Shown piece by piece: positions 18,709 to 25,431 of a stretch of 64,000 nt of DNA. The DNA comes from Escherichia coli (lineage in GTDB: Bacteria; Pseudomonadota; Gammaproteobacteria; Enterobacterales; Enterobacteriaceae), in assembly GCF_003018235.1 (NCBI RefSeq), contig NZ_CP027437.1. One strand, given 5' to 3'. The notes beneath the pieces are model-generated. The model made no database searches and had not been told where the DNA came from. It was given only the letters and a program-made list of their open reading frames with translations. Within the stretch, counting starts at the first letter, position 1; every line of letters starts with the position of its first letter. The position numbers were made by a program, and so were the translations under genes.

Positions 18709-18984
18709 TCACTTCTGCGGGTAGTTGCGCCATACTGCTTTACCAATACCAGCTATCCCCATTTGTTTTTCAGTGCGATTAACTGACCTTTTCAGAGCGC
18801 CTAAATCATCCGGCGGCTCCGGTGGCCTCTGTGCCTTCCTGGAACATTCCTGCCGTCGCATTGCCACCTGTGCGCGTTCCTTGTCTGTCTCCACCAGCAT
18901 CATCACTTCACCCCATCGCGCCGCCGCCCTCCTGTAAAATCCTTTCGCCTCGAGTTCCTCCGCTATACGGTCATGTACCATCAT
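18709..18984 (-). CDS. PerC-family-like small transcriptional regulator (91 aa)
   Basis: N-terminus MMVHDRIAEELEAKGFYRRAAARW resembles PerC-family proteins as I recall them; start overlaps integrase stop. Confidence 0.55.
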   Translation of the reverse strand: MMVHDRIAEELEAKGFYRRAAARWGEVMMLVETDKERAQVAMRRQECSRKAQRPPEPPDDLGALKRSVNRTEKQMGIAGIGKAVWRNYPQK

Positions 18985-19985
18985 TCACCACCTCCCGCAG
19001 ATGGCGATAAGCTGGCTTTGCCTCCAAGTGGATTAAACCTTATCGCCTCTGTCAGAAAATCCGGCGCAAAATGCGCGTAAACCATTGTCTGTTGTATGCT
19101 CGCGTGCCCCAGTATCCTTTGCAGTGTGATTATATTCCCCCCGTTCATCATGAAATGTGTCGCGAATGTGTGCCGTAATACGTGGGTGGCCTGGCCTTTT
19201 GGTAAGTCCGGTTTTACTGACTTGATGACCTCCCTGAACTCCAGATAATCCACATCAAACAACTGTCCCTTTTTACCTCTCGTTACAAGTTCCAGAACGT
19301 CATCAGACACCGGAACAGCTCGCGCCCGTCCGTTCTTCGTCTCCGTAAACATTACCTTGTTACTGACTATATTTTCCCGTCGTAGCGTCGATGACTCCCC
19401 ATAACGCGCCCCCGTCGAAAGACACAAAACAGCCAGCGCGAGACAGTCGCCTTTGGCAATATTCAGTAAATGATTAACCTCATCATCACCAAGAAAACTC
19501 ATAGCCTTGTTTGGTGCTTTCAGCTTGCGTAATCCACTCAAAGGGTTTTCACCGTGATACATACCGCATTCGATTAGCCCCCTGAACATTCCTGATATAA
19601 CCGACAAATCACGGTTAACAGTCAACGGACTAAGGCCGCATCCCAGCTTGTCGGCTCTGTATTCCATGAGCATTGCGCGGGTTATGTTGCAGATTCGTGG
19701 ATCCCCCATTTCACGGATAACCTTCATCATGCGCATAAACGATTGTTCGCCGTATTCCTCCGATCTTCCGATAAACTCCATCCATAAGTTAGCCAGATCA
19801 GATAACAGGCGAATATCTGCGGCGCGTGACTCCCAGGGCTTATTATGACAATGAAGCAGTATGTATTTTTCGTAATCACGGGCTTTTGTCTGCGAGGGAA
19901 AAATCTTTCTTATCCGTCGCCCGTAAGCGCCATTTGGCCTTACGTCAACCAGCCAGCGACCATCCTCACACTTCCTTATCGCCAT
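18981..19985 (-). CDS. Tyrosine recombinase, P2-Int-like (about 334 aa)
   Basis: MAIRKCEDGRWLVDVRPNG... and C-terminal HVLRHTFATHFMMNGGNIITLQRILGHASIQQTMVYAHFAP closely resemble phage P2 integrase as I remember it; start moved to MAIRK. Confidence 0.85.
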   Translation of the reverse strand: MAIRKCEDGRWLVDVRPNGAYGRRIRKIFPSQTKARDYEKYILLHCHNKPWESRAADIRLLSDLANLWMEFIGRSEEYGEQSFMRMMKVIREMGDPRICNITRAMLMEYRADKLGCGLSPLTVNRDLSVISGMFRGLIECGMYHGENPLSGLRKLKAPNKAMSFLGDDEVNHLLNIAKGDCLALAVLCLSTGARYGESSTLRRENIVSNKVMFTETKNGRARAVPVSDDVLELVTRGKKGQLFDVDYLEFREVIKSVKPDLPKGQATHVLRHTFATHFMMNGGNIITLQRILGHASIQQTMVYAHFAPDFLTEAIRFNPLGGKASLSPSAGGGE

Positions 19986-20226
19986 GCTCCACACCCTTAA
20001 CGTTGATGGTTGTTACCTGTTCCGCTTCGGCTATCTCCCGTTCGGTCAGCGTGGCAAAGTTTGCCGCCGCTGTGGTCATGAATGCGCTTATCAGTTCGGG
20101 ATGTGCTTTCGCGTATCCTTCTCCCGTGTTGCGGTCTATCGTTCTGATTGCCACCTTTAAGGCGTGCTCTGTCATGTCTAATGCGCGATATTTTGGCGCT
20201 GCCTTATCTCTGGTTTTTCTGGTCAT
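19966..20226 (-). CDS. Hypothetical protein (86 aa)
   Basis: ORF immediately downstream of iteron array and overlapping P2-like int start. Confidence 0.4.
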   Translation of the reverse strand: MTRKTRDKAAPKYRALDMTEHALKVAIRTIDRNTGEGYAKAHPELISAFMTTAAANFATLTEREIAEAEQVTTINVKGVEHGDKEV

Positions 20227-20431
20227 TCCTCACCACTCCTCACTTTTACTCCTCACTTTTTGTTATTCCTCGCCTGCTCCTCACCTGTTTTTTTTGCTTC
20301 TGTAATGCGTTGTTTTGCAATGTATTTTTTATTCCTCACTTTTTGACCTATATACAGGTGAGAAAGTGAGGAGTAGCGCTGATTTTTTGTTAAATTACTC
20401 GCTACCCTCACTTTTACTCCTCACTTTTTAC
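20226..20431. repeat. Iteron array (at least 7 copies of CCTCAC(T)TTT / CTCCTCACTTTT in both orientations) around an AT-rich spacer; putative replication origin
   Basis: Copies at about 20228, 20237, 20249, 20277, 20332, 20358 (inverted), 20405, 20417; located immediately 3' of the RepA-like gene. Confidence 0.7.
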
Positions 20432-23684: not shown

Positions 23685-23851
23685 CGTGTTTTACCTCATT
23701 AATCCGGCGTGTTCCGGTGATAAATACGGTAAAACAGGGAAGGGCGGGAAAAACAGTACCTACCGTTTTAAAACGGTACCCACTGTTTTTTATCTCGTTG
23801 ATTGTGCTTCTTTTTGCAAAAAATAGCGACCGCAAGGGGCCGCTATTGTGA

Positions 23852-24085
23852 TTACCGTCTCCACTTCTTAGGTCGCCCACCGCATTTAAGGCTGGTGGGC
23901 CTCAGCACCTTGTCGATGCTTTCAGCCAGATTTTTCGATACGCCACGTGAGCGCAAAAAACTGACTACCTCGTGTTTTGTGGGGGCTGTTGATTTGTCTT
24001 CCGGATCGTACGTTGACCAGAATTCACGGCTTACCAGTACAGCCAGTTCAAGCCCGTCACAAGTGCCATTGATGTTTGTTTGCAT
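23852..24085 (-). CDS. Hypothetical protein (77 aa) between integrase and alpA
   Basis: Basic C-terminus GGRPKKWRR; followed on minus strand by hairpin plus T-run. Confidence 0.4.
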   Translation of the reverse strand: MQTNINGTCDGLELAVLVSREFWSTYDPEDKSTAPTKHEVVSFLRSRGVSKNLAESIDKVLRPTSLKCGGRPKKWRR

Positions 24086-24189
24086 GTTGATGCTCTCTTC
24101 ATGTTTGGCGGCCTTTGGGGGTAACGAGATAATGCAACTATACGACGGTTTTACATGGTTTTCATCGTTTTTGCTGGTTTTGTGTACAG

Positions 24190-25431
24190 TTATACCGCAC
24201 GGATACCCCTTTTACCACCAGCAAGGGTAACGCCCGTTGCCGCTGCCTCAACAAATTCCCCCCACCAGCGCATCAGCACAATGCGTTTTTCCAGGTAGTT
24301 ACTGCGGTTGTAGGCTCTCCTTACTTCGTTGGTGTCCACGTGGGCCAGTGCGGCCTCGATTACGTCCGGCTCGAATCCTTCCTCGTTTGCTGCTGTGCTG
24401 AATATGGCGCGTAATCCATGAGACACCAGCACGCCAGCGAACCCCATGCGCCGTAATGCTGCGTTGGCGGTCTGGCTGTTCATCGGCTGGCGTGGGTCTT
24501 TCAGGCTCGGGAAAACATGCTCGCGGTGGTGGCTGATTGGTTTCATGGCCTCCAGCACTGCCATAGCCTGACCGCAAAGCGGGATAACGTGATCACGTCG
24601 CATCTTCATACGTCCGGCTGGTATCGTCCATTGTTGCTCGTCCAGGTCGATTTCTTCCCAGCGTGCTGACGATGCCTCAACAGGACGGGTTACGGTAAGT
24701 AGCTGCCACTCAATCAGTAGTCTTGTCTGCCGTTCTGTTGCCGATACGGATAAAGCCCGCATAAGCTCCGGTAGCTGCTCGGGGCGGATTGTTGGCATAT
24801 GTTTTTTTACTGGGGTGGGGAAGGCCTTGCGCACGTTTGTAGCCGGATTGGTATCAATCATCCCGCTGTTGGCGGCGTAATCCATAACTTCATTGATGCG
24901 CTGTAAAACCCGCTTGAGCGTTTCCAGGTTGCCGCGTTCCTTGATGGGGGTGAGTATCTCCACGAACCTGCGGGCGGTGAGGGTGTCTACTGGCGTGTCA
25001 CCGATGAACGGGAATACATATTTCTCCAGCGATCTCCATATGTCTTTAATTGTGTTGGGTGCAAGATTCTGGCTGATTTTCACCTGGTACCATGCCGCTG
25101 CTACATTTTCGAACGTGTTGCCCTGTCTCCGTTCCTCTGCTTCGCGTTTTCGTCGCTCGTGTTCCTGTGGGTCGGTGCCGGAAGAAATTAACGTCCTGTA
25201 CTCGCTACGGCGTTTTCTGGCATCAGCCAAGGAAACATCATCAAGCGATCCAAAACTCAGCAATATTCTTTTTTTGTCCAATGGGCGGTAGTAGGAAAAT
25301 CGCCAGAGTTTTGATCCAGACGGTTTGACCAGGAGAAAAAGCCCTCCGCCGTCCTGTAGGGTGTACTCCTTTTCCGCTGGTCTGGCTGCTTTGATCTGCA
25401 CTGTGGTTAATGGGGTTGTTTTTCTCGCCAT
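24190..25431 (-). CDS. Tyrosine integrase, P4/CP4-57 IntA-like (about 413 aa)
   Basis: N-terminal arm-binding-type region (KEYTLQDGGGLFLLVKPSGSKLWRFSY), C-terminal catalytic region (HGLRAIFST, ALAHV); adjacent to tRNA 3' end. Confidence 0.9.
   Translation of the reverse strand: MARKTTPLTTVQIKAARPAEKEYTLQDGGGLFLLVKPSGSKLWRFSYYRPLDKKRILLSFGSLDDVSLADARKRRSEYRTLISSGTDPQEHERRKREAEERRQGNTFENVAAAWYQVKISQNLAPNTIKDIWRSLEKYVFPFIGDTPVDTLTARRFVEILTPIKERGNLETLKRVLQRINEVMDYAANSGMIDTNPATNVRKAFPTPVKKHMPTIRPEQLPELMRALSVSATERQTRLLIEWQLLTVTRPVEASSARWEEIDLDEQQWTIPAGRMKMRRDHVIPLCGQAMAVLEAMKPISHHREHVFPSLKDPRQPMNSQTANAALRRMGFAGVLVSHGLRAIFSTAANEEGFEPDVIEAALAHVDTNEVRRAYNRSNYLEKRIVLMRWWGEFVEAAATGVTLAGGKRGIRAV

What the first reader, a model, noticed from the sequence alone, without database searches (positions are those of the whole stretch)
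18981..25431. Two tyrosine recombinases of different lineages in one island
The integrase next to proL (24190-25431) is P4/IntA-type with an N-terminal arm-binding region. The second (18981-19985) resembles P2 Int and sits 5 kb inside the island, translationally coupled to a PerC-like gene. This suggests a composite or nested element, with a P2-int/PerC/capsid segment captured by a P4-like backbone. The second recombinase might instead act on the internal direct repeats.
Basis: partly seen in the sequence, partly recalled or inferred. Interest (0 to 1): 0.6.

Follow-up and report, generated by a model that had tools for sequence, protein, structure and literature searches.

The report
Satellite island carrying an orphan phage integrase
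A 10-kb phage-parasitic island next to the proL tRNA gene of E. coli has its own integrase plus a second, intact integrase gene copied from a P2-type phage without that phage's attachment site; similar captures appear in several unrelated satellites, which suggests the extra enzyme is used on a phage's DNA rather than on the island.

Summary
Both ORFs are intact tyrosine recombinases with all six catalytic residues. They belong to unrelated lineages: int1 is P4-type with an arm-binding domain, and int2 is a P2 Int homologue.

The island (window 15323-25664, 10.3 kb, 9-bp att core in proL) is a Gram-negative phage-inducible chromosomal island (PICI) of the EcCICFT073 kind. PerC, the protease/capsid fusion and the "internal direct repeats" are ordinary PICI parts, and they are also present in a relative without int2. 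The repeats are two lambdoid cos sites. The only extra piece is a 1,014-bp indel that is exactly the int2 ORF. It has no att site, no flanking repeats and no P2 repressor or cox gene, so it is not a nested element.

int2 is old and under selection: dN/dS is 0.075 against an 88%-identical copy in an equally diverged island. In related satellites the insertion site tracks int1, while int2 travels with the replication module.

P2-type integrase ORFs stripped of their arm sites sit next to the replicase gene in at least four independent satellite lineages. One is 94% identical to the co-resident prophage's integrase.

My best reading, which is inferred, is an orphan integrase acting in trans on a phage's att sites.

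The parts
15323..15331 (.). attL core GCACGAGAG (left island boundary)
   Evidence: The same 9-mer occurs inside the 3' end of proL at 25656-25664. A rebuilt empty site matches 4825 of 5426 complete E. coli genomes in one piece.
15392..15417 (.). arm-type repeat CCGTATAACCAAACGTATAACTAAAA (likely int1 arm sites, distal end)
   Evidence: 26-nt repeat, 96% identical to 25494-25519 next to int1 (family D7).
15621..15902 (-). 93-aa conserved PICI gene (phrog_1561), function unknown
   Evidence: present in related islands.
16054..16142 (-). cos1: lambdoid cos-like site downstream of the capsid gene
   Evidence: 84-85% direct repeat of 18603-18690. It matches the region upstream of terS in Fels-1 and PhiR40_1, the genome end of mEp460, and VT1-Sakai at 87%.
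16170..18065 (-). ClpP-like prohead protease / major capsid protein fusion
   Evidence: NCBIfam NF045540, 881 bits; phrog_133; 48-51% identical to the Fels-1 and PhiR40_1 homologues.
18056..18283 (-). 75-aa conserved gene (phrog_4934) preceding the capsid fusion
18603..18690 (-). cos2: second lambdoid cos-like site, downstream of perC
   Evidence: The hybrid cos2/cos1 junction in the deletion variant L009 is shown.
18709..18984 (-). PerC-family regulator gene
   Evidence: phrog_994; PF06069 on the near-identical gene in L003; PGAP name.
18981..19985 (-). int2: orphan P2-type tyrosine integrase (no attP, no C/cox)
19966..20226 (-). 86-aa conserved gene (phrog_1231); its 3' end overlaps the int2 start
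   Evidence: also present in the int2-less island L002.
20238..20429 (.). replication-origin-like iterons (3 x 24 nt, spacing 83-85), 3' of the rep gene
   Evidence: family D2, inverted repeats I1 and I7. The position agrees with PICI origins lying 3' of the rep gene (PMC6092414).
20428..21828 (-). RepA-family helicase (AAA_25), replication initiator
   Evidence: phrog_2850 and phrog_906; PF13481 on the homologue; PGAP name.
21825..22121 (-). DUF4222 gene
23478..23684 (-). AlpA-family regulator/excisionase gene
   Evidence: 99% identical to the L003 gene that carries PF05930.
24190..25431 (-). int1: P4-type integrase, the island's own integrase
   Evidence: It lies adjacent to attR and the arm repeats.
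25467..25519 (.). arm-type CGTATAAC repeats next to int1
25650..25726 (-). proL tRNA-Pro(GGG); the attR core GCACGAGAG at 25656-25664 lies in its 3' end

Best explanation
The island is a Gram-negative phage-inducible chromosomal island (PICI) of the EcCICFT073 kind, integrated in the 3' end of proL.

Shown:
- int1, the P4-type enzyme at the island end, sits next to the att core and arm repeats. It is the island's own integrase.
- The island carries AlpA, a RepA-type replicase followed by iterons, PerC, a protease/capsid fusion and two lambdoid cos sites.
- int2 is a full-length P2-family integrase ORF inserted precisely between two overlapping genes of the post-replicase operon. It lacks the P2-type attP, the arm sites that normally overlap the 3' end of such genes, and the C and cox genes.
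- int2 is kept by strong purifying selection. In related satellites it stays with the replication module while the terminal integrase and the chromosomal site change.
- P2-type int ORFs trimmed in the same way occur next to the replicase gene in at least four independent satellite lineages.

Inferred: int2 is an 'orphan' integrase captured from a temperate phage with a P2-type integration module. It would be expressed with the island's replication/late operon when the island is induced. It would act in trans on that phage's att sites, most likely supplying integrase for excision of a helper prophage, or otherwise interfering with a competitor's integration or excision. It does not move the island itself. 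For classic P2, integrase supply is known to limit prophage induction (my own knowledge of the P2 literature, not checked here).
For: Island identity and boundaries:
- The att core, the arm repeats and the empty site found in 4825 of 5426 genomes define the island.
- The gene set is given.
- The cos identity rests.
- The published PICI features are in PMC6092414, PMC11773190 and PMC10111431.

int2 is intact and P2-type.

The indel is precise to the ORF, with no repeats and no attP:
- Comparison with the int2-less island and the repeat search show this.
- No tandem GTCCAY arm sites occur anywhere in the window.
- All seven satellite-borne Ints lack the C-terminal 'ESVHxxS' tail that encodes the P' arm sites in prophage genes.

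Selection and age:
- The L012 island has int2 at 83.7% nt identity while the whole aligned island segment that contains it is 82.6% identical. dN/dS is 0.075.
- For Klebsiella L063 against L060, dN/dS is 0.061.

int2 is not the integration enzyme:
- The exact int2 protein lies in the proL island, at the same position within it, in every place shown or collapsed as similar among the 23 contigs read.
- Salmonella L013 and L015 share the identical int2 protein and 98.8%-identical DNA from the derepression gene to Hok. They have different terminal integrases and different chromosomal sites.
- Rahnella L079 and L082 share a 97.7%-identical epsilon-int2-primase module with unrelated integration modules.

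Recurrence:
- The satellite-borne Ints fall in at least four clades. Their monophyly is recovered in 0 of 100 bootstraps.
- They make up 3 of 79 species-representative loci and 3 of 80 IMG/VR loci.

Link to a helper: the Klebsiella satellite Int is 94% identical to the Int of a P2-like prophage in the same genome. The DNA homology covers only the ORF plus its ribosome-binding site.
Against: - No cognate phage was found for this island's int2. The nearest prophage Ints are only 60-62% identical (P0037, P0019). In 5426 complete E. coli genomes nothing else covers more than 23% of the gene.
- The island's cos sites and capsid gene point to Fels-1/VT1-Sakai-type lambdoid helpers. Fels-1's annotated integrase is 933W-like; PhiR40_1's was not typed.
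- In Rahnella woolbedingensis the co-resident P2-like prophage Int is only 54% identical to the satellite's Int.
- Nothing here shows activity, expression or a DNA target.
- int2 is rare in E. coli. It is found in 1 of about 19 closely related islands among complete genomes.
Confidence: 0.45

Rival explanations
1. Second integration system. int2 would let the island integrate at an alternative chromosomal site (a P2-type attB) when proL is unavailable.
For: - int2 keeps the N-terminal arm-binding domain and all catalytic residues.
- Integrase exchange is frequent in P4-like satellites (PMC8628076).
- In the Salmonella element L016 the P2-type int lies at the far end of the island, near a boundary.
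Against: - No attP accompanies int2. The indel is the bare ORF. The Klebsiella capture also stops before the arm sites. No tandem arm motifs occur in the window.
- The exact int2 protein lies in the proL island, at the same position within it, in every place shown or collapsed as similar among the 23 contigs read.
- With an identical int2, the Salmonella elements sit at different sites that go with different terminal integrases.
Confidence: 0.1
2. Replication-associated resolvase. int2 was co-opted to resolve island multimers or concatemers at a site within the island. This would explain why it always lies beside the replicase gene and the origin.
For: - int2 is adjacent to the replicase gene in all five satellite architectures seen.
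- It travels with the replication module.
- Selection on it is strong.
Against: - Repeated independent captures from phage Ints, including one 94% identical to a resident prophage Int, are not expected for an internal housekeeping function.
- Heterobivalent P2-type integrases with arm-binding domains are directional integrases, not typical resolvases (general knowledge).
- No conserved candidate site was found next to the gene.
Confidence: 0.15
3. Nested or composite element, or a recombinase acting on the internal direct repeats. int2 would belong to a captured P2-int/PerC/capsid segment, or would delete or invert the 16-18.7 kb segment.
For: - int2 and a ClpP/MCP fusion co-occur in E. coli and in Salmonella L013.
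- A natural variant (L009) lacks exactly the segment between the repeats.
Against: - perC, the capsid fusion and both repeats are present without int2 in strain 4.
- The repeats do not flank int2. They are lambdoid cos sites.
- EcCICFT073 also has two functional cos sites; its integrase content was not checked here (PMC6092414).
- The L009 junction is the hybrid expected from cos cutting or homologous recombination.
Confidence: 0.05
4. Neutral passenger. int2 is a hitch-hiking gene with no function for the island, still intact by chance or recency.
For: - int2 is rare in E. coli. It is found in 1 of 5426 complete genomes and 1 of about 19 related islands.
- int2-less islands are evidently viable.
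Against: - dN/dS is 0.075 with dS of 0.85 against the L012 copy, which is as diverged as the rest of the island.
- All catalytic residues are invariant across 18 homologues.
- Satellites have acquired such genes convergently.
Confidence: 0.1

Closest known systems
EcCICFT073-type Gram-negative PICIs (Fillol-Salom et al. 2018, PMC6092414; gene zones in PMC10111431; EcCIMP1 in PMC11773190)
   Same: - About 10 kb in size, with a terminal integrase and AlpA.
- A replicase with the origin 3' of it.
- A PerC-family gene and a capsid-protein homologue.
- Two cos sites resembling those of lambdoid phages.
- No tail or lysis genes.
   Different: It carries an extra, intact P2-family integrase ORF inside the post-replicase operon. 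I found no description of such a gene in PICIs in the searchable literature. The replicase here is a RepA/AAA_25 helicase. The capsid gene is a ClpP-protease/MCP fusion.
Bacteriophage P2 integrase and its attP-int-C-cox module
   Same: int2 has the same domain architecture and catalytic residues. It is 47.7% identical to P2 Int, and its best structural relative is PDB 5c6k.
   Different: - There is no attP core or arm sites.
- The C-terminal tail that overlaps the P' arm in prophages is absent.
- There are no C repressor or cox neighbours.
- int2 is embedded in a satellite operon instead of lying at an element end.
P4 and P4-like satellites (SatelliteFinder definition, PMC10085698, PMC8628076)
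   Same: It has a P4-family integrase targeting a tRNA 3' end, AlpA and an Icd-like gene. Some relatives carry Ash/epsilon-type derepression genes. The Rahnella and Klebsiella elements with the same kind of orphan Int are true P4-like satellites: a Sid/Psu-like gene in Rahnella L082, epsilon in L079 and L082, and a primase like that of the Salmonella satellite L016 in all three.
   Different: This island has no sid, delta, psu or alpha-type primase. Its cos sites are lambdoid rather than P2/P4 cos.
Excisionase cross-talk between EcCIMP1 and its helper Kapi1 (PMC11773190)
   Same: This is a precedent for a satellite-encoded recombination protein (AlpA_1) that supports excision of the helper prophage.
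   Different: There the cross-talking protein is an excisionase, and the satellite's integrase did not complement the helper's. Here the candidate is a dedicated second integrase of helper-phage type.

Membership tests
Gram-negative PICI (EcCICFT073 type) | Site-specific integration with the integrase at one end and att repeats at both ends | tested here: met
   A 9-bp core at 15323-15331 and 25656-25664 plus arm repeats. The empty site occurs in 4825 of 5426 genomes.
Gram-negative PICI (EcCICFT073 type) | AlpA-family regulator next to int, then a replicase with the origin 3' of it | tested here: met
   AlpA is identified by PF05930 on the 99%-identical gene. The RepA helicase is followed by three iterons at 20238-20429.
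Gram-negative PICI (EcCICFT073 type) | Helper packaging signal (cos, pac or terS) and absence of tail and lysis genes | tested here: met
   There are two cos-like sites, 76-87% identical to the cos regions of lambdoid phages. No tail or lysis ORFs appear in the island's gene list.
Gram-negative PICI (EcCICFT073 type) | Induction, replication and high-frequency transfer by a helper phage | not testable with these tools
   This needs experiments.
P4-like satellite (SatelliteFinder core: psu, delta, sid, epsilon, alpha, alpA, int) | Presence of the sid/delta/psu capsid-hijacking genes and an alpha-type primase | tested here: not met
   tblastn with the P4 markers finds none in the identical island L003. 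There is no P2/P4 cos.
Capsid-forming PICI (cfPICI) | Own large terminase, portal and head-tail connector or adaptor genes | tested here: not met
   The protease/MCP fusion is the only head gene identified. The two small neighbouring ORFs are of unknown function.
P2-family phage integrase (for int2) | Int_N plus catalytic domain with R-K-H-R-H-Y | tested here: met
P2-type integration module (for int2) | attP with arm sites abutting or overlapping the 3' end of int, and C repressor and cox genes upstream | tested here: not met
   About 74 of 79 reference loci have C, and usually cox, upstream. The satellite copies have neither.
P4-family integrase (for int1) | Arm-DNA-bind_3 N-terminal domain, central domain, catalytic domain, and a tRNA 3'-end target | tested here: met
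Nested or tandem integrative element | A second pair of att-like repeats bounding the int2-containing segment | tested here: not met
   No such repeats were found. The indel against the int2-less island is the ORF alone.

The most novel reading that the evidence does not exclude
Phage satellites of several families repeatedly copy only the coding sequence of a P2-type phage integrase, leaving the attachment site behind, and wire it into their replication or derepression operon. This would let the satellite drive, or block, excision and integration of the helper or a competing prophage. That would be a previously undescribed layer of satellite-phage conflict. This E. coli PICI would be one old, diverged example.
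Probability: 0.35. Interest if true: 0.75.

Novelty: new variant of a known kind. Interest (0 to 1): 0.55.

Why it matters
Satellites are known to manipulate helper repressors, capsid size and packaging. They are not known to carry a dedicated copy of a phage-type integrase. If the orphan integrase acts on phage att sites, it would show that satellites can control the physical state of a prophage (integrated or excised). For non-inducible P2-like helpers this would remove the known integrase bottleneck. There is also a practical point: tools that delimit islands or satellites by their integrases can mis-split or mis-type such elements. Here the second integrase does not mark a boundary or a nested element.

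Tried and rejected
- **P2/P4 cos.** I compared the cos junctions of P2 and P4 with the island. Only 9-12-nt chance matches appeared. The repeats turned out to be lambdoid cos.
- **P2-type arm sites.** I searched for tandem GTCCAY motifs and found none in the 64-kb window. The arm specificity of int2 is unknown, so this is weak negative evidence.
- **Defence-system models.** PADLOC searches with int2 and nine neighbouring proteins gave no hits.
- **Rfam.** A scan of 15000-26000 found only proL and one sub-threshold chance match.
- **A candidate cognate helper.** I looked at the hybrid prophage family that carries the nearest prophage Ints (L024, L108, L112). It has a P2-type int/C/cox/gpA early region and lambdoid Q, lysis and terminase genes. 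Its cos region does not match the island's, so no link could be made. No sequenced phage in the phage collection has an Int more than 58% identical to int2.
- **Literature.** Searches for a second or orphan integrase in satellites found nothing relevant.
- **Direction of the indel.** I did not resolve whether int2 was gained or lost. The window is closer to the int2-less L002 (85-87%) than to the int2-bearing L012 (82.6%). This suggests exchange by homologous recombination between related islands, or repeated loss.

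
Full report
**1. Context**

The window is E. coli chromosome. Window positions 11600-26000 match narP-yejO-[island]-proL-yejM in 5425 of 5426 complete E. coli genomes. Only two genomes carry most of the island.

The island genes all lie on the minus strand. In PGAP-annotated relatives they are named as follows:
- integrase domain-containing protein
- helix-turn-helix regulator
- Icd-like protein
- DUF4222 protein
- RepA-family helicase
- hypothetical protein
- phage integrase
- PerC-family regulator
- hypothetical protein
- ClpP-like prohead protease/major capsid fusion
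- hypothetical protein

**2.

int1 (24190-25431) has Arm-DNA-bind_3, Phage_int_M and Phage_integrase domains. It passes the NCBIfam model PRK09692 and is 34% identical to P4 Int with E=7e-82.

int2 (18981-19985) has Int_N (PF24624) and Phage_integrase domains. It matches the solved P2 integrase 5c6k at E=1e-85 and HP1 integrase at 4e-44. It is 47.7% identical to P2 Int.

The two proteins are not detectably similar to each other by BLASTP. Both keep the R-K-H-R-H-Y set.

int2 overlaps the upstream 86-aa gene and perC, and a terminator-like hairpin follows perC.

**3. What the island is**

The 3' end of proL contains GCACGAGAG at 25656-25664. The same 9-mer lies at 15323-15331. CGTATAAC-type repeats sit just inside both ends. 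Joining the two flanks at the core gives a sequence found in one piece in 4825 of 5426 genomes. The island is therefore 10.3 kb, and int1, next to attR and the arm repeats, is its integrase.

Three 24-nt iterons follow the replicase gene.

The 'internal direct repeats' are at 16054-16142 and 18603-18690 and are 84-85% identical to each other. They match the following:
- an unannotated region of VT1-Sakai and Stx phages, at 87%
- the region immediately upstream of terS in Fels-1 and PhiR40_1
- the genome end of mEp460

They are cos sites of lambdoid phages whose head modules use the same protease/MCP fusion (48-51% identity). They are not P2/P4 cos.

A terminal integrase, AlpA, a replicase with the origin 3' of it, PerC, a capsid homologue and two functional cos sites are the published anatomy of EcCICFT073-type PICIs (PMC6092414, PMC11773190, PMC10111431). 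The island lacks the P4 sid/delta/psu/alpha genes and the cfPICI terminase and portal genes.

**4. What is extra**

E. coli strain 4 has the same island at 85-87% identity, with perC, the capsid fusion and both cos sites, but without int2. The difference is window 18983-19996 (1,014 nt) against 16 nt. That is exactly the int2 ORF, and the flanking genes overlap in both forms. No repeat pair brackets int2. This rules out a nested integrative element and a captured 'P2-int/PerC/capsid' block.

**5. int2 is maintained**

- The exact protein lies in the proL island, at the same position within it, in every place shown or collapsed as similar among the 23 contigs read.
- An 88%-identical allele occupies the same position in an island that is 82.6% identical over the aligned 5-kb segment, where int2 itself is 83.7% identical.
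- dN/dS between these two copies is 0.075 with dS of 0.85.
- Only 1 of 5426 complete genomes has the gene. About 19 have the perC-capsid arrangement at 80% coverage or more.

**6. int2 does not set the insertion site**

Salmonella elements L013 and L015 encode the identical int2-clade protein (P0005). They share 98.8%-identical DNA from the derepression gene through the primase, int2 and capsid fusion to Hok. They have different terminal P4-type integrases and sit at different chromosomal loci.

Rahnella L079 and L082 share a 97.7%-identical epsilon-int2-primase block with unrelated integration modules.

**7. The pattern recurs**

Of 79 species-representative loci encoding P2-type integrases, about 74 have the canonical C repressor upstream, most of them also cox. 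Three are satellites:
- Klebsiella spallanzanii L063, where the primase gene is translationally coupled to int2, in an element that also has a P4-type int and a gpN-like capsid gene
- Rahnella L079
- Rahnella L082, which has epsilon, int2, primase and a Sid/Psu-like gene

Three of 80 IMG/VR loci are satellite-sized contigs of about 12 kb with the same combination. Salmonella adds two further architectures.

In a neighbour-joining tree of 79 sequences, the satellite-borne genes fall in at least four clades. Each is nested among or beside prophage genes, and monophyly of the satellite genes is recovered in 0 of 100 bootstraps.

All satellite copies end shortly after the NPL motif. They lack the 'ESVHxxS' tail, which in prophages is encoded by the P' arm sites.

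The Klebsiella copy is 94% identical in protein to the Int of a P2-like prophage in the same genome. dN/dS is 0.061. The DNA homology runs only from the ribosome-binding site to about 20 nt before the stop codon.

**8. Mechanism (inferred)**

An integrase that has lost its own att site, is under selection, travels with the replication/derepression module and has been taken repeatedly from phages most plausibly works in trans on phage att sites.

For P2-like helpers, integrase supply limits prophage induction. That is my recollection of the classic P2 literature and was not verified here. A satellite that co-expresses an anti-repressor and the helper's integrase would overcome this limit. Interference with a competitor is an alternative form of the same idea.

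Against this, for the present island:
- No cognate phage was found. The nearest prophage Ints are 60-62% identical, and nothing comparable exists in complete E. coli genomes.
- The packaging signals point to lambdoid helpers. Fels-1's annotated integrase is 933W-like; PhiR40_1's was not typed.
- The Rahnella satellite does not match its co-resident prophage, at 54% identity.

A resolvase role, a second integration specificity and neutrality remain possible. They are scored in the rival explanations.

**9. The deletion isoform**

L009 lacks the 2.55-kb segment between the cos sites. Its junction is cos2-type on the left and cos1-type on the right, with the switch inside the shared 27-nt block. 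This is the product expected from terminase cutting at both cos sites followed by cyclisation, or from homologous recombination. It does not call for int2.

**10. Verdict**

The element is a known kind (PICI) carrying an apparently undescribed accessory: an orphan P2-type integrase. Literature searches found no description of this.

Noticed in passing
window 16054-16142 and 18603-18690; L009:11250-11560: The two cos sites bracket the hyp75 + protease/capsid module. One natural variant (L009) has lost exactly this 2.55-kb module and carries a hybrid cos2/cos1 junction. The island may therefore shed its capsid gene through cos-to-cos packaging.
   Followed up: partly
window 20238-20429: Three copies of CCTCACTTTTACTCCTCACTTTTT spaced 83-85 nt apart, with an inverted copy between them, lie directly 3' of the RepA helicase gene. 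This is a likely replication origin.
   Followed up: no
window 22412-23473 (minus strand): A 353-aa ORF with a low-complexity translation spans a region where PGAP instead annotates small genes in relatives (Icd-like, YlcI/YnfO family, hypotheticals on both strands). The ORF is probably spurious. This is the most variable part of the island among relatives, and some carry an Ash-family gene here (L008).
   Followed up: partly
L112 (Salmonella contig ABFBXV010000057.1), whole locus: This prophage has a hybrid build. Its early region is P2-type (int, C, cox, gpA replication gene, Ash, DUF4222). Its late region is lambdoid (Q antiterminator, lysis cassette, DUF1441 and a lambda GpA-type terminase). 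It carries one of the nearest prophage relatives of int2 (62%).
   Followed up: partly
window 12629-15220: yejO (autotransporter, 863 aa) is an intact ORF here. It is annotated as a pseudogene or truncated in the closest relatives (SCU-111 and strain 4).
   Followed up: no
window 23749-23790: A 22-nt near-perfect palindrome (AAAAACAGTACCTACCGTTTTA / TAAAACGGTACCCACTGTTTTT) lies between alpA and the 77-aa gene. It could be an operator.
   Followed up: no
window about 41000-43000, 52000-53000 and 56000-57000: Three further low-GC patches (0.43-0.46, against about 0.51-0.53 in most of the rest of the window) may be other horizontally acquired segments. I did not examine them.
   Followed up: no
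L150 and L092: P2-like prophages lie directly next to P4-type satellites in the same locus (tandem or adjacent occupancy). This configuration could give satellites the chance to capture the prophage int gene.
   Followed up: no
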